Notes: generated by a model not told the origin, from the sequence alone. 64,000 nucleotides of DNA from Patellaria atrata CBS 101060 (GCA_010093705.1 MU006095.1:682001-746000); one strand, 5' to 3'; shown: positions 22,215 through 49,737, numbered from the stretch's first letter. Made by a program: numbers and translations.

Positions 22215-23113
22215 ATGCGCGCCTTTATCTCTGGTCTGGTCCTTGCGACCCTTGCCTCCGCAGCTCCCCACACCGCACCCCGTGATGTCAGCAAATTCGG
22301 TTGTGCTACGGAGCCAACTAAGGAGTTTCTTGCAGTTGCGGCGAAGATGCACCAAGCCGAGGTGTCAGGCAAAATGAGCTCCATTCAAGCCACCATCAAC
22401 GTCCCAACATACTTTCACGTTGTTGCCGCCAGTACAAGCGTTGCTGATGGTTACATCTCTGTATGTGTCCCTATATTCCGCTTTACTTAGAACGCACAAC
22501 TGACCTCTACCGTTAGGATGCGACACTCCAGCAGCAGCTAGCTGTCATGAACAGCAACTATGCCCCATATGGCATTGCGTTCCAGCTTGCCGGTACCGAC
22601 AGAACCATCAACTCTCAATGGGCCAACGACAATAACGAGATGGCCATGAAGAGGGCTCTCCGCAAGGGAACCTACAGCAGTCTCAACGTCTACTTCCAGA
22701 AGAGCTTGGGCGGTAATCTCGGATACTGCTACTTCCCTACCAATGCCTCCCCAGGCTCCACCGCCTACATTCAGGACGGCTGCACCGTGCTTGCTGCTTC
22801 CGTCCCAGGTGGCAGCGCTACCAACTACAACCAGGGCAAGACCGCCACCCATGAAATCGGCCATTGGTTCGGTCTCCTCCACACCTTCCAGGGGGGCTGC
22901 AGCGGCTCCGGCGATTCGGTCGCCGATACTCCTGCCCAGTCCTCCCCCACCTCCGGCTGCCCCGAGGGTCGTGACTCTTGCCCCAATAATGCGGGTCTTG
23001 ACCCCATCCATAACTACATGGACTACTCCTATGATTCTTGCTACAGGGAGTTCACCCCCGGCCAGCAGACTCGTGCCTACAACATGTACAACCAATACCG
23101 TGCTGGCAAATAG
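22215..23113 (+). CDS. Secreted M43 (pappalysin-family) zinc metalloprotease
   Basis: Signal peptide, FGC cysteine-switch propeptide, HEIGHWFGLLHTF zinc motif, HNYMDYS Met-turn and FTPGQ. One intron at ~22461-22516. Strong C-ending codon bias. Confidence 0.95.
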
Positions 23114-25489: not shown

Positions 25490-26648
25490 TTACATGTTCA
25501 TGCCAGGAAGATGAGGGAGCCCTGTAGCGCGAGCCGTTAGCTTAGAACTTCTTTAAAAGTGATGCAGGATGACTTACATCCTTCAATGTCCTCATTGACG
25601 AATGATTTGACAGAGCATGCATTCATTTGGGCCACGCTCTGGGACCTGAGAGGCCTGTTGTTTTCACAGTTCTGGAACATGCATCCGGAGTCCATAGCCT
25701 GCTGGAGGGTATTGTCTTTCCAGCCGAAGACGTAATCCGCGTGGGTACCGTAGCCTTTGTTATCGCCATAGCTTAGGACGAAAGGATTCGGTTGACCTGA
25801 TTGCCACATAGAGTTGAACTGGGTCGTATCATAAAGGGTCTCGTACGCTAGCTGTGGCATGCGAACGGGATGCGAGGCTGGGCATGGACCGGCATTCAGG
25901 AAAGCCTCCTTCTGTGTGTTATACATATGAGATTGGTGATCCGGGCTATCAACATTCTTTCCGTCCCAGCATCTGTCCATAGTCAGCGATTGGCTACACT
26001 ACTAAAGGAAGCATCACTAACGAGGGGAAGTGGTGAACAGTCATGATGCCACCCCTGCAGGGCGATGTAGGGAAGTCTGGAAGCTCAGGGAATCTAGTTC
26101 CCTTATCCTGCAAGCAAACGAAACGAAGGCCTACGTGCTTCTTCGCGGCGTCTAATGAATCGGTTGTCGGGCTGCCAACCGTCATACGGAAGCCCTAAAG
26201 CTATTAGTGTCTTGTGATCGTACGATGAACTTCGCTGACTTACTTTCGGGAAGGCTGTAATCTTTTGGTTACCGTTGGAATTGAAATCTTGTTGTGTATA
26301 GTAGATAGTCATTCCACCTTTGATACCGTTAGGTAACGCAGTATTCTGCATGATCGGTACACGCTTATATGAGCCGTTTGTGGGATGCTTGAAGTACAAT
26401 GCGGCAGTCCAGTAGTTGGAAAAGTCATCCGCGAAGGTGCATGTTGTACATGAACCTTTTGCACCGATGTCGCCATCCATTGTTGGTGCAAAGACATTGC
26501 CACCGACAATTTGATGAACATGTGCGGAAGGAGAATTGCCAGGCTCAACGAGAGGATCAAGACGCTGGATACTGACACTAGAACATCCGAAACGAAGGGC
26601 AGCCTGAGAAGGCGCCGCAAGAGCGAGAGCGAGAGAAAGCCACTTCAT
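25490..26648 (-). CDS. Secreted DUF1996-domain protein (4 exons)
   Basis: Signal peptide, LRFGCSSVSIQRLDPLVEPG...HVHQIVGGN, DFSNYWTA, HHFP-CWDGKNVDSPDHQSH, CPASHPVRMPQ and HADYVFGW. Last exon WLPHLPGMNM* ends at 25490. Confidence 0.92.
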
Positions 26649-28083
26649 CTTGACAGAATAGAAGTCTATGATCTGTTCTAGCGACGGTGGAGGTTGCTGA
26701 GAAAAAAAGGACGGGTGCTCTCAGTTGTATTTGAATTCCCAGCTCATCATCCTGATTGAAGTCTTCTGTAAGTTGAAAACTTGCCGACGTTCAAGATACA
26801 AGGAATTGAAATGTTTTGTCCATCCTTTTATCTAAATGTTCGCGCACGACCAATGACATTCAAATCTTAAAGTTTCCCCGCATTTCCTTATATACCCTAG
26901 AAATCCTCGTGGAGTCTATATGGGCACGATGGGATAGAGATACCCTTGTTAAGATCTTGCCACACTAGCGCCATGGATTAGTATATTAGGGGAATATTAA
27001 CCGTCCTGTCCATTCCTGGAGCTTTGTAGAATTAGAAATCCGGGCACTCTTAATTGGAAACAACCCTGGCGGCACATGGATAACAAAATTGTAAAGTGCC
27101 GAAACACAACAGTGTAACGCCGTAGAAGGATAGATAGAATTTAGAGAGAAATATCAAGATATCCAATCAGACTTATGACTGGTCATGTGATCGAGCGTTT
27201 ACCTACCTTGTTTCAAGTCGATGAAGGGATCTTTGGGACCTCTCTCGGCTTTTGTGGAAGGGCCGTACTCGTACTACTTTCGATATACAGGGGTACATCA
27301 TCAACCTTGATGTGAGAGCGGCCGTAGTGTCAAATATGTATCGGTAGCATAAAAATCTCGCTGTTCTTAATGAAGACAAGCAGCTAGCCCACTAAAGGAC
27401 TCGCTCCGGCATTGGTGAGTCCTGAAAACCATCGACTGGTCTGCATGTCATCTGTACGACGGTGGTCCTAGGGATTCAAGAGAGAAATTTGGGTTCATGC
27501 GTCCTTCAAACACTGTTCGTGTAGAGAAAGGAATCTGTTTCGTATTGCTAATGTAGTGAGGTGGGACTCTGTATGACCACGTACTTGTAACAAGGTTTAT
27601 AGTTCTAACCGTCTCTCTACTAGCCTCGCCAAGTAACTTATTCCAACGTTTCTCTTATGATACCACAAAAGGTAAATATGAGAGTACACTCTTGTCTACG
27701 AACTCTTTTGGTATACCCTGCTTTCCGCTGCATGAGGACATGACTACTCCGTCCGCAGCTGGACTGTACAGATGATATCTCTCCCTTCCTTTTTTACTTC
27801 CATGGCGCATCCTGGATCTTTGAAATAAGCAGCTTGTTCTAGACGAGAACTACAAACTCTATGATCTAGCAGCAATTGAATCAAGCTACGGAGAACAAGC
27901 CCGCTAAGATACAATAGCCAAGTTGCTCAAGAGTTTCCACAATCAACTCGAAGCGAAACGTCGGTGACTATAAGATTTCTAGTGATGCAACTTTATCGAC
28001 AAATTAAAGCTGGTACGCCACGTGGGCACTCGTTCTTCGATTCCATATCTAATTTCATATCCATATCCCTCGCGGATGCGAAA

Positions 28084-29454: not shown

Positions 29455-32065
29455 TCAATGATACTGCGTCGGACCTTCCACCTTCCCAACCTTCTTTCCC
29501 AGCATCTCTGCCTGCCTTCCCAGCCGTTCCCAGTGTGTCCCCCAAATTTCCTCCCTCGTAAAATCGAGCCTATGTCCGCAACGTCTCCAGAGCACGTCCT
29601 CTCTCTTCACACCGTCCGCACAACAATGACCCCAGCAATCACCGAGGCGCGTGATGATCGACTCGGTGGGATTAGATCGCCGCGTATCGTCGATAATGCG
29701 CAGCATACTGGGGATAGCCACTTCGTGGAAGAGACGCAGTTGCCCGAAGAAGATGCTGTTGAGGAAGATGTAGTCGGGGAAGAGGCGTCGGGGGAGGTAG
29801 TAGATGTCTGACCAGCTACGCGGAGTTAGCACGTCGGACTAAATTACAAGAGTTCTCGGAAACACTCTTAGTTCGCGAAAGAAGAGTTTGGTATACTAAC
29901 CCCACACACCACTCAGTGGTGTTGATAACGTATCCCACGTTTAGATCTTCGAGGATTCGCTCACCGTGCATCGTTATCTCGTGCATACCCCACCAACCAT
30001 GCCACTCTGGATACTGCTTCGGTGTGTTCATGCAGAGATACCTCGGGTTCGGACTATCGGGAAACCATATGCCGTCAAAATCCATGTTCTGGAACCCGAA
30101 CGGGTCGATCCACGCGTCAAAGTGGAAATACAGCATCCCTTCGATTCCGTTATCTGGATCATCAAGAATCAGCTGCATAGTATCAGCCACTGCCTTGGTC
30201 GGCAGGTCCCCGATATTCCACCCGTCATGAGTCATGTTAAGGAAGTAAGCGTCTTCTTCTTCTCCGTTGTTGGGGAGGGTATGTTCATAAAGATGTGGGA
30301 TGCTATAGTGCAGAGAATGGAAGAACGGTTGGTAAGCTTCCATCAGCGGCATCCGCTCTTCGTGGGGGCTATTCCAACGGATGAAGGCGAATGTGTTCTT
30401 AAAGGGCGATTCCTGGTATTTAGGCGTTTTTGGGGTGGAACTGGCGCCGAGAGCCTCGACCTGCTTGAACTTGTTGTCTGGGGATTTACTGCCCCAGAGC
30501 GTCAAGTGGGATATTATCACAAGAGACACTAGGAGATTGGTGAGGAGTCCGATACCGCGAAGACGTCCCTGAAGCTATTAAAATCATTCTGTTCACAGAT
30601 GTTAGGGAGCACCTACCCCAGGAGCGAAAGAAGAGATTGTTCGCATGACTTTCGAAGAACCACCAAGCAAAGTTGAAGTTGCTTGAATTGAGTTCAAACC
30701 TCCCTTTGGAGTCGCTTCCATATACAACCACGTAGCTAAGAATACGACCATGGATCCAGGAATAACGAGGGGGTTGAACCAAACGTGGAAGAGAATAGGC
30801 GACACATAAAGTAAGATGGACGTCGCAATTGCAGTCGCAAGACATTTAACCAGAGCATCAGCGTCTACGTTGAATGGGTTAGTTGGGCTCATTGACATAT
30901 ATTTTCAATCCCGCATGTAGTCACTTACATTTGTATACAGCCGTAATAGCAAGACCAAAGAAGACATTACTGATGATTACAATGATTGCTCCCCAGTTAT
31001 GGTATCCTACGAAAAATCCAGGCTCTTCTGGGTTGACTATCCGAAGCGTGAAATGGATTACACTATTAATAGTAACACCGCACGCATACAAAACCATGTT
31101 ATCGGAATGTAAAGAAGCATCTTGACTCTTGATCAGACTCTGATTATACACGCTAGAAGTCGCGCTCAGAAAAGTCTTGAAAATAAGAATTAGGTATGTA
31201 GACGCAGCATATGGAGCGCCAACACCAGGACGGTATTGGGTCACGACCACACCGGCGATCTTATTGACGTCCATTTCAGTATATGGACTCGGAAAAGGAA
31301 GGGTGGAATAACGTACCTGTAAGAAAATAGCTACCCACTGAGTCTTTACTATTCGGGTTCCTACACCGTAATACAATACTAGAGCGGTGATCAAGGTGAT
31401 TCCAGACTTAATCAACTGTATCGTTCCTGGGTCCGCCAGTCGATACAAGACGAATACCTATGGCTTGTTAAAATATCATCGGAAGTGGGAGGAATTCTGC
31501 CATACGCAATTGTTGATCAGCGCATAAAGCAAAGCAAGCTGTGCAAAGCCGTACTTGGTCTTTATCGGAACTTCATGTATGCAATAGCCGAGAAAATCTC
31601 GGATCGTGAAGTCGGATTTTGAATCCCCGGCTAGTACATATGCCGCAGGTCGCTCATCGGTTACTTCGCTTGTGAAACTCGACGATTCGCTCAACTCCGC
31701 TGGAGGGTCGATTAACACTTGCTTCTCATCAAGGGAGTCTCGCTCTGGCTGAGGTATTGAGCGATACTCGGTAACTGGCAGCGGATTCCTCCTTTTACAT
31801 TCGCCGTAAAAGAAACAAGTCGAGAGAACAAGCTTGAAGAACTCAGATATTGCTACTGATGCGGAAACTGAAAAGCTATATCTGCAATGTTGTGAGATAC
31901 TATTAGAAAAAATAATTAGGCTGTTACTTACTGCCCCTGGTGCTGAGCCGCTTTATAACAGATCCCGATGCCGACTTGAATAGCGATTAAGGCTATTGCT
32001 GCAACATAGGCTGGGTTTAGTTTCCCTCGAATTGATGTTAGAGTATAAGAAAGGGAAACCGACAT
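29455..32065 (-). CDS. Nucleotide-sugar transporter (SLC35A/UDP-Gal transporter-like) fused to a C-terminal DUF288/STELLO-like putative glycosyltransferase domain (~750 aa, 7 exons)
   Basis: Start MSVSLSYT at 32065. Transporter motifs: ISEFFKLVLS, LALLYALINN, DPGTIQLIKS, QWVAIFLQ, GLAITAVYK.ADALVK. A 42-nt intron (30575-30616) joins in frame to one more TM and a soluble domain (FAFIRWNS, YFHFDAWIDP, GWSDIYYLPRRLFPDY...FHEVAIPSM). Confidence 0.8.
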
Positions 32066-32311: not shown

Positions 32312-34728
32312 TTAAGAATGATCACCATAATTGTAAGCAGCTTTCCAAGCCGCTATAGATCCCCAATCCTTATACTGGGAAACTCTAACCCCAAAGAAGG
32401 GGTGGGATTCGCAAGTGAGTTCCCAAAGGATATCAACGACTCGAAGCTCGTTGTTGCGAGGTCTGCTATCCTTGCGTTCACAAGAGAAATCTCTAGAGCG
32501 TAATAAACGACGGAGTTTCGAAGCAGCAGAACTAAAATCTGACGCTTCGAGAAAACTCCAACCGCCACAACAGAAGTCCGATGATAAAAAAGACCCATAG
32601 GCGATATTTGAGACCAAATTATCGTAGCTAAATGACACGTAGCTTTTCCTCATTGCGTCTACTAGGTCTGGCCGTAAAGCACTTTTAGATAGTTCGTTCG
32701 AAGTATCGTCCTTGACGATTCGGGATACAGTAATATAGTTACCACCGGAGACTACATGGGCAAAGTCATTATCCGCATCCTTGATAAAGATAGGACCTTG
32801 AATATCTTTGGTTGTGATAGCATCAGTGATAGTCTCAACAACATCAACCGTTTGTTCTTCAGCGTAATAGAACTCGAGAAGACCGCATTTTCGAGGGCCA
32901 AGTAGATCAAAGAGCGATTCGAAACTCCCATCATCCACACAATGCTCTTCAATCGTCGATCGTAATACTATAACCACTATGCGGGAGACGTTTCTGACAT
33001 CAAGATTACTGATACAGTCGACAATCAGGGGTCGCCCATTAGACTAAAAGGATTGGTCAACTTGAGGAGCAATTAAGTCGGATAAGTGAACTTACATTGG
33101 TGGTTAAGAGCTTCACTGCTCCATCAGGATACACCTCATCCATGTCTGGTCCTAGGGCAGGCAAAATGACCGTAATTCCTGACCCTGTCTCATGATAAGG
33201 TCTATCCAGATCTACCGGTGACTCTAAAATGGTCGGAGCAGTCTGGAATCTCATAGGCCACATACTTTTGACAACCCTTTGAAGACCGGCCATGAGACAT
33301 CTCTTTTCTTCTATCGTAGTCATATACGGCAAAATTCGTGCAACGCAAAAGAATTCAAAAAGAGGAAGGACATCCCAGAATGAATATTTTTGGTAGGCAA
33401 TGATAATCTTCTCATGAAAGAGAGCGAGAAAGGTGACACCTCTAGCAAGCTGATCGGGGGAAATCTGCGCGACAGTGAAGAACCAGTGATGACGAACATC
33501 TTGCAACAATTTTGCGATGTCTTGCAACGGTGATTCCTAATAATCATCGTTAGCCTCGTGAGCTTGCATTGTGATATGTGCTCATGTCTTACGACGAAGC
33601 AATCAAGGAAATCTAGTACACAAAATTCTCGATTATCCGTATCTGCAAGGATATTCAGCAAGGTTAGGTCGCCGTGACAAGTACCCAGTGGTACCTCTGC
33701 ATCCGACAAACAGTTCGTGTAATAACCTAGGACGAATTCAAATTGAAGGTCAATGATCTCAATGTCAAAATCAGTGAGCAGTTCGGATGAATGAAGAGCC
33801 ATTCGGATATTCCGGGCCTTTGCGTTGAACTGCGGCATGATTGTGTGTAGAGGAACGTTTTTAGTCTTGGTGAGCATGTTATCAACAAGTCCAATGGCGG
33901 TGTCAATGAACCAATCCCATGTTGACTTATCCTTCTCTAGAAGAACGGTTGTCGTATCGTGGAATGGAATATACTCCATATCAACGACTAATGTATCTTG
34001 TTCCTCAGGGATGTGTGGGGACCGAATCCCATATATTTCAGGCGTGCTAATAACAGACTGAAGGTGATCAGTACGACACCAAGCAGAAAACTCGATTTGC
34101 TTCACAATCTGCTTTAGCAGTCTGTTACCATCTTGTTTTGCGCCGCTGAATGCTTGTTTTCTTACTGCCCACATGCTCGAGGTTAGCCGTCGAATAGTGG
34201 CTTTGTTGACGTATGATTCAGCTGATTCTAGTAGAGAAAAGTACGATGGTCTGCGTTGCGGCCATCCTTCGCGTGTCGGCAACATAGGCCTGCGTAATGC
34301 TTTTTGAGCTTGAGATGCTCTTGAGCCGATTATGCCGAGGGAGATTTCAGACGGGTTCGGGGACGGTGAGCGCGCATGTGCTAAGACGGTCTGCATATTC
34401 TCAGACCCCCATACTGTAGCCAAATCGATCAGTAGAAGAAATGAGATATGTGCTAGAGCTTACGTTTATCCTTTGCGGAAAGATATACAAGATCTAGATC
34501 CGTCTCACATTCGGCAATGCTAATGATCTTGACTTCACAATCAGACCTACTCACCCCCTTTAAGGTAGGGACGTGCGATTCTGCTTCCTTCTGTCCAATG
34601 CTACCATTTCGAAAATGGGCGGGTTTGGATATTTTTGTAGCCCCATTTGCGTTGAATGACTGAGTATCCAAGTGTTGAGAAAATGAATCAGAGATTGTAA
34701 CACTAGGATGTATTTCGTGTCCAGGCAT
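32312..34728 (-). CDS. APH/choline-kinase-fold phosphotransferase fused to a degenerate nucleotidyltransferase-like domain (752 aa, 4 exons)
   Basis: Introns 34414-34463, 33537-33592 and 33044-33095 give one continuous ORF. Kinase motifs: AVRK, RLLKQIVKQ, DMEYIP, CHGDLTLLNIL, VLDFLDCFV|ESPLQDIAKLLQD. C-terminal domain: ILPALG..., GPIFIKDADNDF, KSYV, FCCGGWSF, YKDWGS. Confidence 0.85.
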
Positions 34729-34981
34729 TATGACTGAACAACAACAGATTGAAAAACATATGATGAGTGTTGACTGATAAAGTGTATACTCATTTATCAT
34801 TCCCCCAAATAGTCGCGAGGTTGGTACGCTGCGCGTCTAAGGTATGTAAATACCTGTTGTGTAACATCCTTCCTACATGTAGTACCTGCGCGTGGAGTTC
34901 TCAAAATTTTTAAAAAGGGATAAAAGGAAATTTTGGAGAAGGCCAAACTCCGCTAATCATTCTACCTCTTTCTCAGACATC
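34729..34981. promoter_or_regulatory. Putative bidirectional promoter (253 bp) shared by the two divergent cluster genes
   Basis: Head-to-head ATGs at 34728 (-) and 34982 (+). CTGCGCGT occurs at 34829-34836 and 34886-34893. Confidence 0.55.
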
Positions 34982-36823
34982 ATGGGAGGAATCACTCAAC
35001 ACGCAACCGAAGGTATCCACCATGCCCATTTCCAGACCAGTGGAGGGAAAGGCATCATTGACTTCCTCCGTACCTGTTCAAAGTTCGAGCTCAGTTGGTT
35101 CATAGAGCAGACACTTGCGCATTTCCCTCGTGGTCGCGTTCTGAAGTACCCAGATTTGAAGGTTGACCTTGACAAGATCCGTATCGATGTGGACCAAAGG
35201 ATCTTACACTGGGAGCCAGAATCAGAGGATGAGATTTCGAACAATATCATTGAAAATTTCATTTCATCTCTCTTCAAAGCTCTCGTGAATGGGCAGGTTA
35301 CGGCTGAGAGACCCCGACGCGTACGTGAGAGTATCGCGGCAATAGTGGTGTTACAGAAGATTATCTGGAAGTTTGATGGTCTTGTCGCAAAGTGCGACGA
35401 AGAAGTGTTTTGGAATGATACAGTTTCTCGAGAAGATAGATCTAATGGTCATTACCGATATCGGGTAGAAAAGTTACTTAGGCCTACTATTTCAAAGGAA
35501 GCAACTAGCACGCTCGGATATCTCCTCAAATCTATGAATGAAAAGATTGATGGAAAGGCGCTGGAGGATGTTCCTCGAGGTCCCGTCCCAGATAGCACGG
35601 CACCTGTACCGGCCCCTACGAGGGATGCTGATGGTTCGTTCTCACATTCTCCCAACGCTCAGGTCGTGACACGGCCACCGTTGGTCGAAGGCACTCCTAG
35701 AGATGGAACATCAACGTTGATTCTACCGTGCGCTGGCCGTAGCTCTCGTTTTCCGGGAACCAGACCGAAATGGATTCTAACTCAGCCCAACGGCCGGCTC
35801 ATGGTGGTTGACTCTATAGCCGCCTTAGAACTGCAAAAGGTTCACCGAGTTGTTTTGGGAGTCCTCAAAGAACACGTTGATAAGCATTGCGGGTCGGATG
35901 TTGATGCCATAATTCGAGGTTTTGACGACGGTCCTCCTCGACTTCGAGAAATCGAAATATCTGTTGTTATTTTAGATTTTGAAACCCGCGATCATGTGCA
36001 GACGGTCGAATGCATCGTCCGAGCGGCTAATGTGCAAGGGCCTATCTTCATGAAAGATTGCGATAATAGCTTTCGATGTGATATTCCCGGTCGGGATGGT
36101 GTTGCTTTGTTTGAGGTGAGAAAAGACCTTGAATCTGTTTCCAATCCTGCTGCCAAGAGCTACGCTACGTTCGACAATGCAGGCATCATCACCAACATCG
36201 TCGAGAAGGTGATGCTTGGCTCGCACTTCTGTTGTGGCGGCTACTCATTCGGCGATGCTATCGATTTTCTATCCTACACTGAACTTGCGCGGAAATACCA
36301 AAAGAGCACTCGCACCGATGACCTCGATCTTTCCGTTTCCGATGTTATCTGGCTGAAAATGGTCTCTCCTTTCTCGCCCAGGACCCCTTCCAAAGGGTTT
36401 ATGGCCATTCCCGTCTTTGACTACGAGGACTGGGGCACACTGGTGGCCTGGCAAGCCTACACAAGGACTTTCAGCACCCTCTTCGTCGATATTGATGGTA
36501 CTCTCGTCAAGAACAGTGGGAAGAACTTCAAACCTTCCTACGGTGACATGCCGGCGCTTGAAAAGAATGTTATGGCTCTTCAGAAGCTGTATGCTAAAGG
36601 CCGTACGCATATCATTCTTACGACAACACGGCCTGAGGAATACCGCGACGTTACTATCAAACAGATGAAAGATTGCGGCGTCCCGTATCATGGTATCGTA
36701 TTTAGTCTTCTCCATGCAAGGAGGGTTGTCATCAATGATTATGCAGTCACTAATCCTTACCCGTGTGCCGTAGCTATAAATCTCCAGAGAAATGGGGAGG
36801 AACTAGCGCAACTCCTAGTATGA
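34982..36823 (+). CDS. Kinase remnant, sugar-phosphate nucleotidyltransferase (GT-A fold) and HAD (EcbF/BcbF-like) phosphatase fusion; intronless
   Basis: NTP-transferase signature ILPCAGRSSRFPGTRPKWIL, then GPIFMKDCDN, NIVEK, FCCGGYSF and YEDWGT. C-terminal HAD motif I LFVDIDGTLV, motif II LTTTR and RRVVINDYA. Confidence 0.88.
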   Translation: MGGITQHATEGIHHAHFQTSGGKGIIDFLRTCSKFELSWFIEQTLAHFPRGRVLKYPDLKVDLDKIRIDVDQRILHWEPESEDEISNNIIENFISSLFKALVNGQVTAERPRRVRESIAAIVVLQKIIWKFDGLVAKCDEEVFWNDTVSREDRSNGHYRYRVEKLLRPTISKEATSTLGYLLKSMNEKIDGKALEDVPRGPVPDSTAPVPAPTRDADGSFSHSPNAQVVTRPPLVEGTPRDGTSTLILPCAGRSSRFPGTRPKWILTQPNGRLMVVDSIAALELQKVHRVVLGVLKEHVDKHCGSDVDAIIRGFDDGPPRLREIEISVVILDFETRDHVQTVECIVRAANVQGPIFMKDCDNSFRCDIPGRDGVALFEVRKDLESVSNPAAKSYATFDNAGIITNIVEKVMLGSHFCCGGYSFGDAIDFLSYTELARKYQKSTRTDDLDLSVSDVIWLKMVSPFSPRTPSKGFMAIPVFDYEDWGTLVAWQAYTRTFSTLFVDIDGTLVKNSGKNFKPSYGDMPALEKNVMALQKLYAKGRTHIILTTTRPEEYRDVTIKQMKDCGVPYHGIVFSLLHARRVVINDYAVTNPYPCAVAINLQRNGEELAQLLV

Positions 36824-37151: not shown

Positions 37152-38228
37152 TCACTTCGTCTTCCCACCAGAAAATAACCTCGACCACTTCGGCAAGCTC
37201 ACCACCGCATTCCCTTCCATATCCTCAAGCAGTGTAACCCTTTCCCTCTTCCTCACAAAGTGCCTCCTCTCCGAATCCACATACATCTGTCCAGGTCTCA
37301 ATCCTCCTCTCACGGCTCCCGAGTGCTTCGTGGAAGTACACATGATTGTGTACATCACCCTGATAGCTCCTACGCCTTAAGGGTGTAGGACCAGGGTCTC
37401 CGTTACTGGCGTCTCCGTGGGGAGGTGTGCGAGCAAAGGCTCCCTGCGATGGAGGATAGGGACGCCGTTCGCGCTCGCGGGGAGAGTAGCGCGGGGCGGG
37501 GAATTGGGGTATCGCTGTCTCCTGGAACGATGAGCCGCTGGACTGCCATTATGCATACCGAAACGATCGGAACGTCTACGACGATGACGCCGCCTGCCAC
37601 CCTGGTTCTGGTTCTGAGTATTCGTCTGGTTTATCACTACATTTACCGGGGGAACCACTGCCGACATCTCACTCTGTGGAACAGGGGGGTTGGGAGGCAT
37701 TGCGGTCCCTGTGTGATGAGTGAAGCTACCCCTTTCGGTCCGAGCAGAGGGGGGGAGGTCGTGAAAAGCTCAAGGAGCCTCACTCTGGGTACGAGATTTA
37801 GAATTATGTCCGTAAGCTCCTGTATATGGGATAGGACCTACCTGTGATTGCCGTTCTGGCCATCTCTCCGCAAGATGAAGTTGACGAGGCGGTGGCACAA
37901 GGCTATGTCTACCATCCGGTTCCTGCGGCGGAGCGTGAGCGAATCCCTGTGCCACAGGCGGTGGCATTCCATTCCCGAGCTGGGGAGGTGGAGCGAAGTC
38001 GGGAGGGAAGTATCCCGAGCTTGAGGACTGTGGATCAGCGTTCGTGTCATGATGTTGCTGTGAGGTACAAGGAGTCTGTGGAACTTGCTGACCCCAAGGG
38101 CTGTAGACCTCCTGCATCTGGTTGGCTGAAAAGGTCACCGGAGCACGTTGTCGTAGAACCTGTCCTACGTTCGGTTGACGGTCTTCAGGATGGTCTCGCC
38201 GACGAGAGTCTCGTGGACGGCGATGCAT
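37152..38228 (-). CDS. Hypothetical Pro/Arg/Gln-rich protein; may carry a premature stop
   Basis: Exon 38228-37784 and intron 37783-37709 (GTGAGG..CAG) join in frame to MPPNPPVPQ. After TAA at 37377-37379 the same frame stays open to 37152. Confidence 0.5.
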
Positions 38229-38991
38229 GATAGGGATGAGGTGAGAGTTAGGGAATTCGTATCGAGGTGGTGAGAAGAGAAGATGGAGACATCTTAGGAA
38301 AAGACCATTATACTCCCTGTTACAGAAGATGTGGCATTACTATAGAACAATCACTCTCCGTTACGTACGTGCGTTCTTCCAGCTTGTGAATTGTAGAGTA
38401 GCAATTGCAAAGTTGGCGCGAGTTCGCCGGTTAGGTGAGTCTTTTGTTTTTGAACAATGTCAAGCACAGAGCGTGTGAAAATTGAGGGTGAATGCTAGAG
38501 TAAAAACAGAGATTCATTTTTAGAGCGGACGTTGGGTACTAGGCGAAAGCAAATTCTTTTCCTCAAGTGAGGGATTGGGGTCACAAAAGAATATGGTATA
38601 TTTACGCCTAATTATGAGCTTATCGGTGCTCATCGCACTTTAAATAAAAGGATCAGGAAGAATTCTATAAAGGAAAAAAAAAATGAAAAGGAAATTGAGT
38701 ATGAAGGGAATTGACTTGACTGAAAGAAATATAGAATGGATAGTGCCCCCACCAAGCCACACAAGCAGAATTAGGGATTTTCTTTCCGTGCCTCAAAAAT
38801 AAGCCACCCATTGAGAAATCTGGCAAAGCGAAAGAACGCGTGACCGACGTGTCAACAAGTTTTTCATTACAGCCAAACAGTTCACGCGTAAAAGTTCGAA
38901 TGACCAGTATGGTAGTCTACTAACAACGAATGGTATCTTGGTATCAAGCACACAAAATTACTCAAACACGCAACTCTACCTAGCAGGGGAA

Positions 38992-41421
38992 CTATGACTT
39001 CACGTCGACCTTCTCCGTTGGTGTGGCAGAGCCGCTTCCCTCTACTTCCCTCACTTCTCCATGTGTAACACGACCAGGCTTCCTTTTCCCAGTTATATCT
39101 AAAAAGATTGCCTTGAACGTCCTGGCACTTGTTGCGCGTCCCTCCCACAATGGATAGATCCCGACACAGAAGCTCGAGAAGAAGAGCCACATAATACCGA
39201 CGACAACCCAGCCGGTGAAGAACTTCTTGCTGAAAATGTAGCCAGATCCATACATGGGCATAGGCCAGAGTACGAGGAGACATAATGTCATGACGACAGT
39301 AAGGATGCGCGCAAACCTTGAGGCTTTCTTGAGTTTGGCTTGCTCTTCAGCCTCGTCTGATTCCGAATGTACACCGCCAGGTACCAGCTCAAGATCAACG
39401 TGAGCGGCAGCGGCAAGATCATGATCATCACCGCGGCGAATCGCCTTCATGCTCACCCAATCGTACGTTGGGGTTTTAAGTGTGAAGCTAAGAAGAGGAA
39501 CGAAGATCAGGGGTGAGAGCAGAGCAACAACGTTACCTGCCAACATGGGGTTGCTAGATCAAAAGTCAGCGCTGATAATTATGGAACGCATTGGAATTGC
39601 TTACTTGGCACCAGTGGTTGCAACAGAGAGTTCACCGCCTTCCTTTTGGGCTGTTACCAACCATGCGATGAGAGAGCAGGCAAGACCTAGAGGAGGTGTG
39701 AAAGTAGCTGCAGCCCAGCTCTGCTTGCTCCAGAGAAGCGTTAAACTGGCTGGGAGCACAGCAGAGGATATGATTACACCCATGAGTAAGTAGAGATAAC
39801 CCATGGAGATCCCAATATAGTACAGAGCAGTACTGAAGCCGGCCATTGCTAAAGCGAAGCCAACGACACAAGCATGGGCCATGTTGATCAGACGTCTACC
39901 GCTAGCTTCAGGGTTGAAGTAAGTCTGATAGATATCATAGGTGAAGATAGAGGATACAGCAATAAGTTCGGCAGACATAGCTGATGTTACAGCCATGAAG
40001 ATCAACAAAAGGGTCGCTGCAGCGCCGCCACTGCCAAGCATAGCGACAGCAGCGGAAGGAAGAGTTAAACCAGCCGAAACATCCGCAGCTGGCAGGCGGT
40101 TGGGGTAGGTTGGGAATACCGGATTATCCTCAAGAGCAAGACAAGCGAGGCCCATGGTGGTAGCAGCAAGCCAGGGAATGGCAAACCAACTGAGACCACC
40201 AATGACATATCCGGGAAGAGCATGGACCGGGTGAGCAGCAATGGCTTTGTTGTAATAACCTACAGGGGTTAACAGAGAAACTCGAAAATTGGAATCAAAA
40301 TACTATACCATTGTCGCAGAAAACTGTTCCGAAGTTTCCTACAATGTTGATGACAAAGAAGATGGCACCCTCTTTTGATCTCATAGTAAGATAGCTGCCA
40401 CCGGCATTGCCCTCGACTGGGTGACGGATCGCAGCTTCTTGCAACTTCTCCCAAACTGCACTAGGGCTACCAAGGATGTCGTTGGTCGCATATGTAGTGA
40501 ACGCGAAGGTGAGGATAATGATGAGGATGACGACGGTGTGGGCATAGTCCGTAAGGAATGTAGCTTTGATACCACCAAACATGGTATAGATAACGACACC
40601 GACTGGGAGCAGGAAACAAGCTGCAGCGGTGGGAACGCCTGTGAGGGAGGTGACCACAGCGGAACCACCAGTCAACAACATAGAAGTGACCAAGATGTTT
40701 GTCATCAGGCCGAAAACAATGAAAACACCGTGGGTCACTGTGCCATAACGAGCCCGGATAACCTCCAGGAACGTGTGAGCGTTTGGAGCTCTGCGTTTCA
40801 ATTCGATGGCAAGCGTCGCGAACAGAATAACCTGTACGGTAGCCCCTGAAGCATACCAGAATGGGCCGGAGACACCACTATAGGAATGATTAATTGGGGT
40901 TTCAGGCTATGAGGCTAATTGCTGTACTCACTAGTTGTACGCGACGGACGAGGATTGAAGAAGCGTAGCAGCCCAGGTCCAGGACGAGACGACCGCAGAT
41001 GCAACAAGACCAGTCTTGACAGTTCTACCAGCGGTACTGAACATCTCAGACGTCTGAACTTCATAGTTGTATCTGTACCATGTCAGTCTTGACTAATCCC
41101 TGCTTATGTCATTGGACGAATGTAGGTCTCCGCCCTCCGGGATCGCTATAGATTTCCGGGTGGGATATTGGGGACTTAAAAAGCAAGATGTCGTCTCCAG
41201 AGCGATAGTTTGCAGAGAAATATCTTTCAAGTACAAAGGAGAGAGCTCTGTGTAGCACGTACCGTTTGAGGATGAAGGTGGTCAAAATCATACCAAAGCT
41301 ATACCATCTGTTAACTGAAATTCTGATCATATAATATCCTAGGAACTTACGCAAAGAGAAATCCTAGGCCGATGATAACGCCATAGCCAACGGCCTGACT
41401 GAGGGGCGGGTTTGTAGCCAT
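38992..41421 (-). CDS. DUR3: Urea/polyamine active transporter (sodium:solute symporter family)
   Basis: [83 protein letters not shown] and [21 protein letters not shown]. Multiple introns. Confidence 0.95.
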
Positions 41422-44582: not shown

Positions 44583-46703
44583 CTAACTCGCCGTCCCGTT
44601 CGTCGGCGGCGTGAAGAAAGTCTGCTGATCCACGACCAACAATCCTGCAATACTCGCACTGGTGAGCGTCGAAATAGCGCCCGTGATAAGCGCCGAAACG
44701 GCGAGTCTGCTGACGTCGCCACTGCGGCCGGGGGAGATCTGGGAGAGCACACCGATCTGGGTGCCAAGGGAGCCGAGATTGGCAAACCCGCAAAGGGCAT
44801 ATGTCGCGATGAGGCGAGAGCGCGGGGAGAGGTCGGCGTAGGCGGGGTCCTGTTGGAGGGCGAGGTAGGCGACGAATTCGTTCTGTTGTGAATGATCAGT
44901 ATTTCATCTTGGAGTCACTGCGTTTTATGAGAGTTGGGGAAGGACTTACGATGATGAGCTTGATTCCGATTAGGCGGCCAACGGGGAGCAGGTCTGGACG
45001 TGGGACGCCGAGTAAGAAGGCGATGGGGTAGCAGACGTAGCCGATGATGAGCTCGAGGGTGAGGTCGTAGTCGCCGTCGAGGTTGATGTAGCGGCCCCAC
45101 CATGTTAATAGGCCGTCGACGAGTCCGAGAAGCGCGATAATACAGAGGAGCGTCGCGACGATCATACCGGCTATCTTGAGACCGAGCCACGCGCCATTAG
45201 CGAAGGCATGCAGGGAGTTAGCGGCACGGTGCTCGTCGTCATCTGGAATAACGACACGACCAGCGGTTAGAGTCTCTTCTTCCTCCGGGTAGCGGAGCTT
45301 GCTGATAGCGAGGGAAGCTGGGATACTCATAACACAAGAGGAGATCAGAGCTTGGGGGTTGATGCCGAGACCGATATAAGCGACGAGGACGGAGCCTGCA
45401 ATAGTGGCGAAACCGGAGCACATGACTTGATGAAGTTCGGCCATGGTAAGATGGGCAACGAACGGCTTGATCAACATAGCAGATTCACCTTGTCCGATGA
45501 AGGGGGATGCGGCAGCAACGACAGCCTCGGCACCGGACACGCGCATGCTCCAGAAGAAGAAGACGGCGAACTTGCCAATGAACCATTGGAGGAGACCCCA
45601 GTAGTACAGCAGCTGGACAAACGCGACGAAGAATATGATTGGGGGTACCACACCCGTGAAGAACCAGGGGAGCTGGGGTACGGTTGCATCAGTGAGGAAA
45701 GTGACACCATCGTTAGCGAAGTGCAGGAGTTCACGAGCAAGCTCGGAGATGAAATTGAAGATGTCGTAACCGGCCTGGGTACGGAGGACGAAAAGAGCGA
45801 CAATGAACTGAATGAACATGCCAACGATGACGGTATGCCAATTGATCTTCGACCTGTTCCTGGAGGTGAGCCAGAGGACAAAGATAAACACGATGAGACC
45901 GAATAAGCTGACCGCACGGTTTGCACGCGTGTTGTCGAGACTCTCCTCGCTGGCAAAGGCACCAATGACGATAACGCCGACAACTAGAGCCGCTGCAAGC
46001 GGAATACGAAGCTTTGGTGGAGTCAATTCTGCGACTCTTACACCGGTGTGACGCCATACAAGCTTCACGGGCTGCATAACGAGGCTGACGGGAACGTAGA
46101 GGGTGATCAGACGGATGGTGATGCACAGGTACAACAGGAATGGGATAACCCAGTTCTTGTCACTACGGTGCTCAACCAAGCTAGCAATCCACCAGCTTCA
46201 AAATAGACATATTAGTATATGATCATTAAAAATCGACAGATCAACTTCTTGGGTCAAACCTACCCAGTGAAGAACAACCAGATGAACAAATGGAAAAAGA
46301 TGCGCCATTTCCTGTAGAAGTTGGAGACGGTGTGGGTTTTTGGGTCTTCTTCTGGCTCCATGTTGTTCCTTGTCGGACTGATGCTACCCTTTTCCGCATC
46401 ATATGCGTCTCCCATCATCTCTTTCTCCTGAGCTGCACCATCCTTTTTGTCGGAATGAAGTCGTCGGTGAAGTGCATGATCATTCGGATCCTGATCAGGG
46501 ATTATGCTCTTTTCTGCGGTCGTGCCCGTTGTATACGCAGGTTCGTCTGTCCTGCCCCTCGGAGCACTTGAATCGTGGTGAAGATGTGTATGTTGATGCT
46601 CATGGCTGATGTCGAGAGCGGGATCGCTATTTCTAAAGACGTCACGCTGCGGGGAGGCATTATGGCTCCGCTTCGGCTCCACTGGGGTGAAGCTTTCAGC
46701 CAT
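44583..46703 (-). CDS. cntA: Concentrative H+/nucleoside cotransporter (CNT/SLC28), 3 exons
   Basis: INWHTVIVG, SGAEAVVAAASPFIGQGE, MCSGFATIAGS, SKLRYPE, IGIKLII|NEFVAY and ATYALCGFANLGSLG. Stop TAG at 44583-44585. Confidence 0.95.
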
Positions 46704-48512: not shown

Positions 48513-49737
48513 TCATTCTTTTGGCCCTTCGATGAGGATCTTAATTCCCTTTCCGGCCTTAACATCTTCAAACGCCTTCTCTGCATCTTCAAATTTGACT
48601 TGACCAGTGATCAGTTCTTTCACACTCAGTCTTCCGCTACCGACTAGATCCACAGCAAGGGCGTAGTCTCCACTACCGTATCTGAAGCTACCTTTGAGAT
48701 TCAGCTCTTTGACGCACATTGCAACAATTGGGAATTCAATGTCTGGCTTGCCCATACCTAGTCCCATTATCAGCTTTGCGATTATAGATCCTGAGAGAGG
48801 GCTGGAACTTACCCCCCTGAACATAGGTACCACCAGTCCGTAAGGCGTGAATTGACGTCTGGATGCAAGGCTCTGCACCACTGGCATCGATTATTACATC
48901 AGCACCAACTCCCAAGTCACAGTCCTTTATCAGTCTCTTCGCACTATCTTCAGCACTCTCCTTTTGACTCCTGAATGCGCTTGATGCCGCATACTTCAGT
49001 GCGAATTGCAACCTCTCTTCGTTGATATCCACCGTCACAATCTTGGTCGCGCCAAATGCTTTTGCAACAGCACAACACAAGAGCCCCACCGGGCCAGCTC
49101 CAAATACGACCACCTTGTCTCCCGGCTTGATGCCAGCTTGCTTGCAAATATGCACCGCAACAGCAGTAGGCTCAATCAGCGCCCCCTCTTCTAGCGACAT
49201 GCCCTCGGGAAGCTTGTAGCAGAAGTCCTCGGGTAGACTGTAATACCGTGCAAGAGTACCATCGAACGGTGGGGTTGCAGCAAACTGCATGTCGAAGCAA
49301 AGATTGTACTTCCCCTCTCTACACCGCACGCATCGTCTGCAGGGTACACCAGGCTCCATCGCAACCCTATCACCAACCTTAAGACTTTTGACATTTTCAC
49401 CAACCTCAGTGACCACGCCCGCAGACTCGTGGCCCAGCACCATAGGGTTCTCGACCACGAAGTTGCCGATGCGACCATGGACCCAGTAGTGGACATCGGA
49501 GCCGCAGATGCCGGTGTATTGCACGTTGACGATGACATCGTGGGGTGATTTGAGGGTCGGCACAGGTCGATCTTCAAAAGTCACCGCTCCCGGCTTTTCG
49601 AGCACGAAAGATAGGTTTCTGGAGGAGGTGGAGGAGCCGTTAGTCTTTGCTTTCTTGCTGGATCTGGGCGATGTGGGAGCTGGCGGGGCATCCGCAGTTG
49701 AACGCCGTGCTGACCTGCGATTTTTGGATTCTGACAT
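48513..49737 (-). CDS. xdhA: Xylitol/sorbitol dehydrogenase (zinc MDR family), 2 exons
   Basis: GICGSDVHYW, MVLGHESAG, CRRCVRCREGKYNLC, FAATPPFDGTL, FGAGPVG, VQGG|MGK and GSFRYG. Confidence 0.93.

What the first reader, a model, noticed from the sequence alone, without database searches (positions are those of the whole stretch)
32312..36823. Head-to-head paralogues with reciprocal domain decay
Both genes share an NTP-transferase domain: GPIFIKDADNDF / GPIFMKDCDNSF, KSYVSFSYDNLVSNI / KSYATFDNAGIITNI, FCCGGWSF / FCCGGYSF, YKDWGSIAAW / YEDWGTLVAW. The minus copy has lost the nucleotide-binding loop (LPALGPDMDEVYPDGAVK versus LPCAGRSSRFPGTRPK) and has no HAD, but its kinase is intact. The plus copy has intact NTase and HAD, and its N-terminus (IIDFLRTCSKFELSWFIEQTL) resembles the kinase segment TTVLLEKDKSTWDWFIDTAI but lacks the HGD and DFLD motifs. 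Inference: a kinase-NTase(-HAD) fusion duplicated in inverted orientation and subfunctionalised. The dead domains may be retained as interfaces for a heteromeric, substrate-channelling complex.
Basis: partly seen in the sequence, partly recalled or inferred. Interest (0 to 1): 0.78.

Follow-up and report, generated by a model that had tools for sequence, protein, structure and literature searches.

The report
Split sugar-activating enzyme pair in fungus
Two neighbouring fungal genes divide the three steps of making an activated sugar between them, and at least one keeps a disabled but well-conserved copy of the other's enzyme part; they sit in a small conserved cluster with a sugar transporter and a sugar-adding enzyme.

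Summary
The minus gene (four exons, 32312-34728) encodes an APH-fold kinase fused to an NTase-like domain. The plus gene (34982-36823) encodes an N-terminal extension, an NTase and a HAD phosphatase. The two NTase domains are paralogues (BLASTP E 8e-32; hhalign E 1e-44) and group together against all sampled prokaryotic relatives (99/94).

The minus NTase lacks the signature loop and the VEK motif. It is nonetheless as conserved among orthologues as the kinase (0.54 vs 0.57), so it is a fixed pseudoenzyme and is not decaying. Some relatives still carry a dead HAD behind it.

Only about 34 columns match, so I rate a kinase relic at about even odds.

The pair belongs to a conserved four-gene cluster with an SLC35A-type nucleotide-sugar transporter and a STELLO-like glycosyltransferase. 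Prokaryotes carry kinase plus NTase-HAD as adjacent genes in polysaccharide loci.

Most likely mechanism: sugar-phosphate to 1,n-bisphosphate to sugar-1-phosphate to NDP-sugar, as in GDP-heptose and phage UDP-arabinofuranose synthesis. The heteromer idea could not be tested. The substrate is unknown.

The parts
32312..34728 (-). Minus gene (kinase + pseudo-NTase), four exons, stop codon at 32312-32314
   Evidence: ORFs; splice sites; identical database protein P0078; tblastn mapping
33267..34228 (-). APH/ELK-fold kinase domain (P0078 residues 151-452), interrupted by intron 33537-33592
32315..33179 (-). Pseudo-NTase domain (P0078 residues 468-738), interrupted by intron 33044-33095
34229..34728 (-). 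N-terminal extension of the minus protein (residues 1-150), with intron 34414-34463
   Evidence: Mapping; mean pairwise identity 0.36 among orthologues; low model confidence
34729..34981 (.). 253-bp spacer between the two divergent start codons; a shared promoter region is inferred
   Evidence: Coordinates; no transcript data
34982..36823 (+). Plus gene (N-extension + NTase + HAD), single exon. The ORF opens at 34892; the annotated start is M31.
   Evidence: P0001
34982..35701 (+). Plus N-terminal region (residues 1-240), mostly helical; possible relic of a kinase C-lobe
   Evidence: Model secondary structure; hhalign and shuffle controls; low conservation of 0.20-0.25
35702..36472 (+). Intact sugar-phosphate nucleotidyltransferase domain (residues 241-497)
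36473..36820 (+). Small capless HAD phosphatase domain (residues 498-613)
30605..31952 (-). Nucleotide-sugar transporter gene (several exons), a conserved neighbour
   Evidence: Pfam Nuc_sug_transp 31.8 bits against 27. Found beside the minus orthologue in L027, L030, L036 and L032
29458..30574 (-). STELLO-like glycosyltransferase gene (two reading-frame pieces), a conserved neighbour
   Evidence: No Pfam hit. Orthologue L027:205-1197 in the ESM Atlas: feature score 0.96 to a STELLO2 cluster; TM 0.71 to a STELLO1 cluster; TM 0.80 to a 900-aa Ascomycota 'UDP-galactose transporter' cluster. Synteny

Best explanation
The two genes together encode one short pathway that turns a sugar phosphate into a nucleotide-activated sugar.

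Proposed steps:
1. The kinase domain of the minus protein phosphorylates the anomeric carbon of a sugar that already carries a distal phosphate. This gives a sugar-1,n-bisphosphate.
2. The HAD domain of the plus protein removes the distal phosphate.
3. The NTase domain of the plus protein joins the sugar-1-phosphate to an NTP, giving an NDP-sugar.
4. The neighbouring transporter imports the NDP-sugar into the Golgi or ER, and the neighbouring STELLO-like glycosyltransferase uses it.

The NTase-like domain fused to the kinase is a paralogue of the active NTase. It has lost the NTP-binding signature loop and the VEK motif but is kept under strong constraint. I infer that it acts as a non-catalytic module: a product or intermediate sensor, or a docking surface for the active NTase-HAD protein. 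GMPPA plays such a role for GMPPB.

Shown here: domain identities, paralogy, motif states, conservation and cluster synteny. Inferred: the order of the reactions, the bisphosphate intermediate, and the role of the pseudo-domain. Unknown: the substrate and the nucleotide.
For: Paralogy:
- BLASTP E 8e-32 and hhalign E 1e-44.
- In the careful tree, plus and minus form one side of a branch at 99/94. The minus stem is 1.97 changes per column against 0.54 for plus.

Domain identities:

Motif states:
- AGRSSR..PK, VEK and DxDG are invariant in 24 of 24 plus-type sequences.
- The minus loop A[LV]G(P/R/S)..YP.G.[IV]KLL is conserved, and its VEK is replaced.

Constraint in six matched taxa: kinase 0.57, pseudo-NTase 0.54, plus NTase 0.58, HAD 0.59.

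Pathway precedent: phage UDP-arabinofuranose synthesis uses an APH-like kinase, a HAD bisphosphate phosphatase and an NTase (PMC13326640, passages read).

Context:
- Transporter and STELLO-like GT lie beside the minus orthologue in 4 of the 13 fungal-like metagenome loci. The 13 loci range from about 1 to 22 kb, and most are too short to show neighbours.
- 22 of 24 alphaproteobacterial loci have the kinase directly after NTase-HAD.
- 29 of 35 other prokaryote-like loci hold both a kinase and an NTase-HAD. In most the kinase lies directly upstream, often with overlapping stop and start.
- These prokaryotic loci also carry GT2, GT8, capsule-synthesis, sugar methyltransferase and epimerase genes. 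In L048 and L050 a transaldolase/FSA gene lies directly upstream of the kinase. That fits a phosphorylated sugar as the kinase substrate.
Against: - No biochemical data exist for any member, and no substrate can be named.
- The HAD and NTase Pfam scores of the fungal protein are below the curated cut-offs.
- tblastn with the related NTase-kinase protein P0119 found no RB69- or HY126-type phage gene (16 records matched, all cyanophage or marine virus). The phage pathway is therefore an analogue, not a shown homologue.
- Linkage is not universal. L037 shows no plus gene within about 6 kb downstream of the minus gene.
- A complex between the two proteins was not tested.
Confidence: 0.55

Rival explanations
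1. A single kinase-NTase-HAD gene duplicated. One copy kept the kinase and silenced NTase and HAD. The other kept NTase and HAD, and its kinase decayed into the present N-terminal extension.
For: - 0 of 301 match-column shuffles reach the score.
- A profile of 41 kinases that excludes the fungal minus family, its eukaryote-like relatives and P0094/P0095 gives probability 76.7%, with 0 of 170 shuffles reaching it.
- The 13-row profile of the fungal minus family and its eukaryote-like relatives gives a colinear 133-column alignment. It places the plus beta-hairpin on the HGD loop and FLAxLL on SPLQDIAKLLQD. Score 21.4; 2 of 181 shuffles reach it.
- The helix breaks in the two independent models coincide (plus H25-31/H34-47 against minus H239-248/H251-270).
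- The N-extension is about 240 aa, close to a bacterial kinase of about 285 aa.
- Three-domain proteins exist.
- The common prokaryotic arrangement, kinase then NTase-HAD with overlapping stop and start, is one mutation from such a fusion.
Against: - Only about 34 columns carry the signal. The other ~185 residues score at shuffle level (12.9 against 11.1 +/- 2.3; 36 of 170 shuffles reach it).
- The small-profile comparison gave probability 0.8%.
- The ESM Atlas search of residues 1-225 gave no kinase, and TM was at most 0.35.
- No catalytic motif survives.
- Column shuffles destroy helix periodicity, so they overstate significance.
- Every three-domain protein found already has a dead NTase and a dead HAD, and none of the 160 fetched proteins is intact in all three domains.
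Confidence: 0.45
2. Salvage route. The kinase phosphorylates a free sugar at C1, as AmgK, NahK and maltokinase do, and the NTase activates it. The HAD acts upstream by freeing the sugar from its 6- or 5-phosphate (like MupP), or it has an unrelated role.
For: - The AmgK-MurU-MupP trio has the same three folds (recalled, not tested here).
Against: - The HAD is fused to the NTase in all 75 fetched proteins that have an intact loop. That fits consecutive steps better than a distant upstream step.
- The best HAD fold match is a sugar bisphosphate phosphatase.
- A TAL/FSA gene directly upstream in L048 and L050 suggests a phosphorylated substrate.
Confidence: 0.2
3. The pair activates a non-sugar head group such as choline, ethanolamine, a phosphonate or an alditol phosphate. 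It would be a LicA/LicC-like CDP-alcohol route rather than an NDP-sugar route.
For: - There is a weak Pfam Choline_kinase hit.
Against: - The conserved neighbours are a nucleotide-sugar transporter and a glycosyltransferase-fold protein.
- The prokaryotic neighbours are sugar epimerases/dehydratases, sugar methyltransferases and GTs.
- LicA/LicC-type routes need no phosphatase.
Confidence: 0.1
4. The minus NTase-like domain is still an enzyme with non-canonical residues. It might be a second nucleotidyl or phosphosugar transfer step, and not a pseudoenzyme.
For: - It is highly conserved (0.54).
- It keeps KDADN, FCCGGW and DWGS. In RmlA-type enzymes these positions include the metal-binding acids (role recalled, not tested).
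Against: - The SSR of the signature loop and both residues of VEK are replaced in 10 of 10 orthologues.
- The alignment places a two-residue insertion in the loop.
- The same loss recurs in P0113 and P0093-95, where a kinase is also fused in front.
Confidence: 0.07

Closest known systems
Phage UDP-D-arabinofuranose route (AfhE kinase/pyrophosphorylase + AfhF phosphatase; RB69 gp52:53/gp51)
   Different: In the phage the NTase and kinase are fused, NTase first and both active, and the HAD is separate. Here the HAD is fused to the active NTase, and the kinase carries a dead NTase. No sequence-level link to the phage genes was found. The substrate here is unknown.
GDP- and ADP-heptose synthesis (HddA or HldE kinase, GmhB HAD phosphatase, HddC or HldE NTase)
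   Different: The heptose kinases have GHMP or ribokinase folds, not the APH fold. There is no pseudo-NTase, and the pathway is bacterial.
GMPPA/GMPPB, KONJAC/VTC1, AGPase large/small subunits, eIF2B gamma/epsilon
   Different: Here the pseudo-NTase is fused to the pathway's kinase rather than standing alone. No complex has been shown.
4evw, Vibrio cholerae RC9 'nucleoside-diphosphate-sugar pyrophosphorylase' (structural-genomics entry)
   Different: It is a single domain of 244-255 residues, and no function is stated in the entry title. The profile E-value is only 0.016.
AmgK-MurU-MupP MurNAc recycling, and LicA-LicC phosphocholine activation
   Same: Both pair an APH-fold small-molecule kinase with an NTase of this fold. 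MurU, LicC and LicA are all fold matches.
   Different: These kinases act on unphosphorylated substrates. There is no NTase-HAD fusion and no pseudo-NTase.

Membership tests
Sugar-phosphate nucleotidyltransferase fold (4evw, RmlA, GlmU, NTP_transf_3) | Overall fold matches solved NTases | tested here: met
Sugar-phosphate nucleotidyltransferase fold (4evw, RmlA, GlmU, NTP_transf_3) | N-terminal signature loop G-x-x-x-R ... K (NTP phosphate binding; role recalled) in the plus domain | tested here: met
   A251 G252 R253 S254 S255 R256 ... P262 K263 W264 are invariant in 24 of 24. They align with the PmAGmSSRF..PK loop of 4evw.
Sugar-phosphate nucleotidyltransferase fold (4evw, RmlA, GlmU, NTP_transf_3) | The same signature loop, and the VEK motif, in the minus domain | tested here: not met
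   The loop reads PALGPDMDEVYPDGAVK. SSR is replaced in 10 of 10 orthologues, and VEK is replaced by A-Y-G, A-M-K or S-H-A. This domain is therefore not filed as an active NTase.
Sugar-phosphate nucleotidyltransferase fold (4evw, RmlA, GlmU, NTP_transf_3) | Pfam gathering score | tested here: inconclusive
   P0001 has no NTP_transf hit at E up to 0.1. The chytrid P0038 scores 16.3 bits against 27. The bacterial relatives P0074 and P0075 pass PF12804 (31.9 and 30.4 bits against 27).
HAD-superfamily phosphatase (capless, 1xpj/AfhF/PNKP type) | Motif I DxDGT nucleophile, motif II S/T and a C-terminal acidic motif | tested here: met
   Plus: D503, D505 and G506 are invariant; R550, N585 and D586 are invariant, T548 nearly so. 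The minus-family HAD remnants read IDLERL, VELEEL and INLDSF.
HAD-superfamily phosphatase (capless, 1xpj/AfhF/PNKP type) | Fold or profile match to solved HAD phosphatases | tested here: met
APH / eukaryotic-like small-molecule kinase | Catalytic loop HGDxxxxN and Mg-binding DFxD, in the minus protein | tested here: met
   H335 G336 D337 ... N342 and D356 F357 L358 D359 are invariant in 10 of 10. Pfam APH scores 34.1 bits against 23.2.
APH / eukaryotic-like small-molecule kinase | The same motifs, or fold, in the plus N-terminal region | tested here: inconclusive
   No HGDxxxN or DFxD motif is present. One 34-column profile match at probability 69-77%. The rest gives no signal. This part could not be folded and searched alone.
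AfhE/AfhF-type kinase, bisphosphate phosphatase, NTase pathway | All three domain types encoded together | tested here: met
   Kinase, NTase and HAD lie in two adjacent genes. Adjacent or overlapping genes are seen in 22 of 24 and 29 of 35 prokaryote-like loci.
AfhE/AfhF-type kinase, bisphosphate phosphatase, NTase pathway | Bisphosphate intermediate and substrate identity | not testable with these tools
   This needs enzyme assays.
Pseudo-NTase regulatory partner (GMPPA-like) | Physical complex with the active paralogue, and ligand binding without catalysis | not testable with these tools
   The complex predictor was unavailable. Only the conserved degenerate loop is shown.

The most novel reading that the evidence does not exclude
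A patchily distributed fungal cluster makes, imports and transfers a nucleotide sugar not yet described in fungi. The sugar is built from a sugar phosphate through a 1,n-bisphosphate.

The two enzyme genes descend from a bacterial-type kinase/NTase-HAD pair that fused, duplicated and split its work reciprocally. Each product keeps the other's dead domain: a pseudo-NTase (with a pseudo-HAD in chytrids) on the kinase, and a kinase C-lobe relic on the NTase-HAD. These dead domains serve as the interface or allosteric switch of a heteromeric channelling complex.
Probability: 0.3. Interest if true: 0.8.

Novelty: new variant of a known kind. Interest (0 to 1): 0.6.

Why it matters
It points to an unannotated route to an activated sugar in Dothideomycetes, Leotiomycetes, lichen fungi and a chytrid. 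All named members are 'hypothetical', 'HAD-like' or 'aminoglycoside phosphotransferase' proteins. The route comes complete with its own transporter and transferase, so the product could be identified directly by expressing four genes.

It is also a clean natural example of a multi-domain enzyme whose work was divided after duplication while a dead domain was retained under selection. The same kinase-plus-dead-NTase design recurs in at least two other groups of sequences (P0113 and P0093-95). That suggests the pseudo-domain does something the kinase needs.

The kinase family is rare: 69 representatives at E up to 0.001 among 1.84 billion. It has no characterised member that I could find.

Tried and rejected
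Larger profiles later changed this result.
- The ESM Atlas search of P0001 residues 1-225 gave no feature hit. The structure rows had TM at most 0.35 and none was a kinase.
- My first shuffle control was flawed. Shuffling gap-rich columns gave a heavy tail, and 8 of 162 and 8 of 212 shuffles reached the real score. I repeated it on the 274 match columns only. One search timed out with no output.
- L047 first looked like a single-frame kinase-NTase-HAD fusion. The ORF listing shows a stop codon between the two genes, so it is not a fusion.
- The AU test of a single origin for all kinase-linked dead NTase domains (minus + P0113 + P0093-95) gave p 0.08. Neither a single origin nor independent origins is established.
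- Complex prediction (plus 225-613 with minus 460-738) was unavailable. Nothing was folded.
- Expression: no RNA holder is listed. The two runs that hold the stretch are probably DNA and show no joints.
- dN/dS per domain was not feasible. Orthologues are about 50% identical in protein, and the only close pair (L030 and L036) differs at 4 of 2273 and 2 of 1233 bases. I used amino-acid conservation instead.
- The PDB profile search with the minus family found nothing below E 0.6.
- The VIA and Foldseek lists for the plus model are filled by NTase matches, so its N-terminal part was barely tested.
- tblastn of P0119 against phages gave only cyanophage or marine-virus NTase(-HAD) hits and no AfhE-type gene.
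- The literature searches found no paper on this fungal cluster or family (one search was a syntax error). The library lacks most subscription journals, and the primary AfhE/AfhF paper was not in it.
- Earlier-findings look-ups by place and by sequence returned nothing.


Full report
**What is there**

The window is eukaryotic. The database protein identical to exon 2 of the minus gene is named by its source as a hypothetical protein of the fungus Patellaria atrata CBS 101060.

The minus gene is not a single ORF. Three reading-frame pieces join through GT-AG introns at 34414-34463, 33537-33592 and 33044-33095. The annotated protein P0078 (738 aa) starts at ATG 34728 and agrees with my splice. 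The one difference is a further, very short intron that the annotators removed in the linker between the domains. I did not verify that intron.

The plus gene is one exon. The annotated protein P0001 (613 aa) starts at 34982. The two start codons face away from each other with 253 bp between them.

**The shared domain**

BLASTP of the two proteins gives 30% identity over 270 residues, E 8e-32. Family profiles give probability 100%, E 1e-44 over 303 columns.

Pfam does not reach its threshold on the fungal sequences. The AlphaFold model of the plus protein (mean pLDDT 72.9) nonetheless places residues 241-497 firmly in the sugar-phosphate nucleotidyltransferase fold:
- Foldseek 4evw_A: E 2e-9.

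**Which domains are alive**

In 24 aligned plus-type sequences (20 fungal, 4 bacterial), the loop AGRSSR..PKW, the VEK motif and the HAD DxDG are invariant.

In 10 minus-type sequences:
- The kinase motifs HGD, N and DFLD are invariant.
- The NTase loop reads A[LV]G(P/R/S)..(Y/F)(P/S).G.[IV]KLL, with a two-residue insertion in the alignment.
- VEK is replaced.
- KDADN, FCCGGW and DWGS are kept.

By the canonical criteria the minus NTase is therefore inactive. It is not decaying, however. Mean pairwise identities in six matched taxa are:

| Domain | Identity |
|---|---|
| Minus kinase | 0.57 |
| Minus pseudo-NTase | 0.54 |
| Plus NTase | 0.58 |
| Plus HAD | 0.59 |
| Plus N-terminus | 0.20-0.25 |

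The degenerate loop itself scores 0.62 over all ten minus-family sequences in the same call.

**HAD remnants and three-domain proteins**

The chytrid proteins P0086 and P0087 and the ENA protein P0082 continue past the pseudo-NTase into a stretch of about 100 residues. It aligns with the HAD domain but has lost motif I (IDLERL and VELEEL against VDIDGT).

A further 695-aa protein of unknown origin, P0113, is kinase + dead-loop NTase + HAD with INLDSF. In every case found, however, the NTase and HAD are already disabled.

- 75 have an intact loop plus an intact HAD and no kinase motif.
- 73 have the kinase motif only.
- 1 has an intact loop only.
- 11 have none of the motifs.
- 0 combine a kinase motif with an AGxSSR[FY] loop or with DxDG.

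My pattern missed one reverse-order protein. P0119 is an intact NTase of another loop type (GGSGERF) followed by this kinase.

P0093-95 are kinase + dead-loop NTase proteins without a HAD.

**Origin of the two copies**

I built a careful maximum-likelihood tree of 49 NTase domains: 14 fungal plus, 10 fungal minus, 3 of the P0093-95 type and 22 prokaryote-like.
- Plus and minus fall together on one side of a branch at 99/94.
- The minus stem is long (1.97 against 0.54 changes per column).
- P0113 joins the same group (99, quick tree).

The two fungal domains therefore come from one duplication that postdates their split from all sampled prokaryotic relatives, and the minus copy then evolved faster.

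An AU test does not reject a single origin for all kinase-linked dead NTases (p 0.08).

Orientation is not conserved:
- Head to head here.
- Tandem in L030 and L036.
- Tail to tail in L032.
- No plus gene within about 6 kb downstream in L037.

By equal contig lengths, the two genes share a contig in 5 of 6 taxa where both proteins were retrieved.

**The plus N-terminus**

With small profiles there was no signal (probability 0.8%), and the ESM Atlas gave nothing.

With 70 plus N-termini against 56 kinases, hhalign aligns plus 21-54 with the post-hinge helices of the kinase (P0078 about 239-272). Probability is 68.7%, E 4.5e-5, over 34 columns.
- On the 274 match columns, 0 of 301 column shuffles reach the score (40.5 against 12.1 +/- 2.4, maximum 22.8).
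- An earlier control that included gap-rich columns was unreliable.
- A 41-sequence kinase profile that excludes the fungal minus family, its eukaryote-like relatives and P0094/P0095 gives probability 76.7%, with 0 of 170 shuffles reaching it.
- The 13-row profile of the fungal minus family and its eukaryote-like relatives gives a weak, colinear 133-column alignment. It puts the plus beta-hairpin on the HGD loop and FLAxLL on SPLQDIAKLLQD. Score 21.4; 2 of 181 shuffles reach it.
- The helix boundaries in the two independent models coincide at the aligned positions.

Against this, the remaining ~185 residues score at shuffle level and no catalytic motif is left. Column shuffles also remove helix periodicity. 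I could not fold this part alone. I rate 'relic of a kinase C-lobe' at about even odds.

**Context**

The gene pair belongs to a larger conserved unit. Upstream on the minus strand lie:
- A nucleotide-sugar transporter (30605-31952; Pfam Nuc_sug_transp).
- A gene without a Pfam hit (29458-30574).

Both recur next to the minus orthologue in L027, L030, L036 and L032, in varying order.

The ESM Atlas classifies the L027 orthologue of the unknown gene as STELLO-like glycosyltransferase (feature score 0.96; TM 0.71 to a STELLO1 cluster). It also finds the same fold inside a 900-aa Ascomycota 'UDP-galactose transporter' cluster (TM 0.80). That suggests a transporter-transferase fusion in other fungi.

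In prokaryote-like DNA the kinase and NTase-HAD are neighbouring genes:
- NTase-HAD then kinase in 22 of 24 alphaproteobacterial loci.
- Both genes are present in 29 of 35 other metagenome loci. In most of these the kinase comes directly before NTase-HAD, often with overlapping stop and start.

I scanned 47 neighbouring ORFs from eight such loci. They include GT2, GT8, capsule-synthesis, pyruvyl-transferase, FkbM/TylF methyltransferase, epimerase/dehydratase and UDP-glucose-dehydrogenase genes. In L048 and L050 a transaldolase/FSA gene sits directly before the kinase.

**How it most likely works**

The three live domains match the logic of GDP- and ADP-heptose synthesis. They also match the phage UDP-arabinofuranose route, in which an APH-like kinase makes arabinose-1,5-bisphosphate, the HAD enzyme AfhF removes the 5-phosphate, and an NTase makes the UDP-sugar (PMC13326640, passages read).

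I therefore propose this sequence: sugar-n-phosphate, then 1,n-bisphosphate (minus kinase), then sugar-1-phosphate (plus HAD), then NDP-sugar (plus NTase). Import and transfer by the two neighbouring gene products would follow.

I infer that the conserved pseudo-NTase is a sensor or docking module. The analogy is with pseudo-NTase partners such as GMPPA and KONJAC, whose structures are fold matches (7d72_K, 8yre_A). Their biology is recalled, not tested here.

The substrate, the nucleotide and any complex remain unknown. The complex predictor was unavailable. No RNA data were available.

**Verdict**

- Duplication and division of labour: yes.
- 'Decay' of the minus NTase: no. It is a fixed, constrained pseudoenzyme.
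- Dead kinase in the plus gene: possible.
- Inverted duplication: not shown.
- Heteromer: untested.

Four literature searches found no description of this cluster or family. The library is limited.

Noticed in passing
window 29458-31952 (-): A STELLO-like glycosyltransferase and an SLC35A-type nucleotide-sugar transporter are adjacent. The ESM Atlas shows a 900-aa Ascomycota cluster in which this GT fold is fused to a transporter.
   Followed up: partly
tree (P0038, P0086, P0087): The chytrid plus-type protein P0038 nests inside the lichen-fungus sequences (100/99). The chytrid minus-type proteins, in contrast, branch outside all the others. This could mean gene transfer between fungi or contamination of an assembly.
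   Followed up: no
L040, L044, L045, L056, L061: A nitroreductase-family gene recurs downstream of NTase-HAD in prokaryote-like loci. It is directly downstream in L040, L044, L056 and L061. A methyltransferase often follows it.
   Followed up: partly
L048 7985-8680, L050 8446-9141: A transaldolase/fructose-6-phosphate-aldolase gene lies immediately upstream of the kinase. It may be the source of the phosphorylated sugar substrate.
   Followed up: no
phage records H1-H15: Cyanomyoviruses carry NTase genes of this kind. They are annotated variously as 'phosphatase', 'HAD-superfamily hydrolase' or 'nucleoside-diphosphate-sugar pyrophosphorylase', which suggests NTase-HAD fusions in phages.
   Followed up: no
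P0111: This 554-aa protein consists of about nine tandem copies of a 60-residue unit, and it matched the kinase query in 8 stretches. It is probably a mistranslated tandem DNA repeat derived from a kinase gene fragment.
   Followed up: no
P0092: This minus-family orthologue from Sphaceloma murrayae is named 'DNA polymerase epsilon subunit B' by its source. The name looks like an annotation error.
   Followed up: no
window 33180-33266 (-): The annotated protein P0078 removes a stretch of about 45 bases (encoding SMWPMRFQTAPTILE) as an intron in the kinase/NTase linker. That is very short for an intron, and the stretch is open in frame, so the model is doubtful.
   Followed up: no
window 22517-23110 (+), 25540-26720 (-), 37380-38336 (-), 38995-40906 (-), 44899-46197 (-), 48739-49797 (-): Other genes seen in the Pfam scan: an M43 metallopeptidase, a DUF1996 protein, a proline/glutamine-rich ORF without a family, a sodium:solute symporter, a concentrative nucleoside transporter and a zinc alcohol dehydrogenase.
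   Followed up: no
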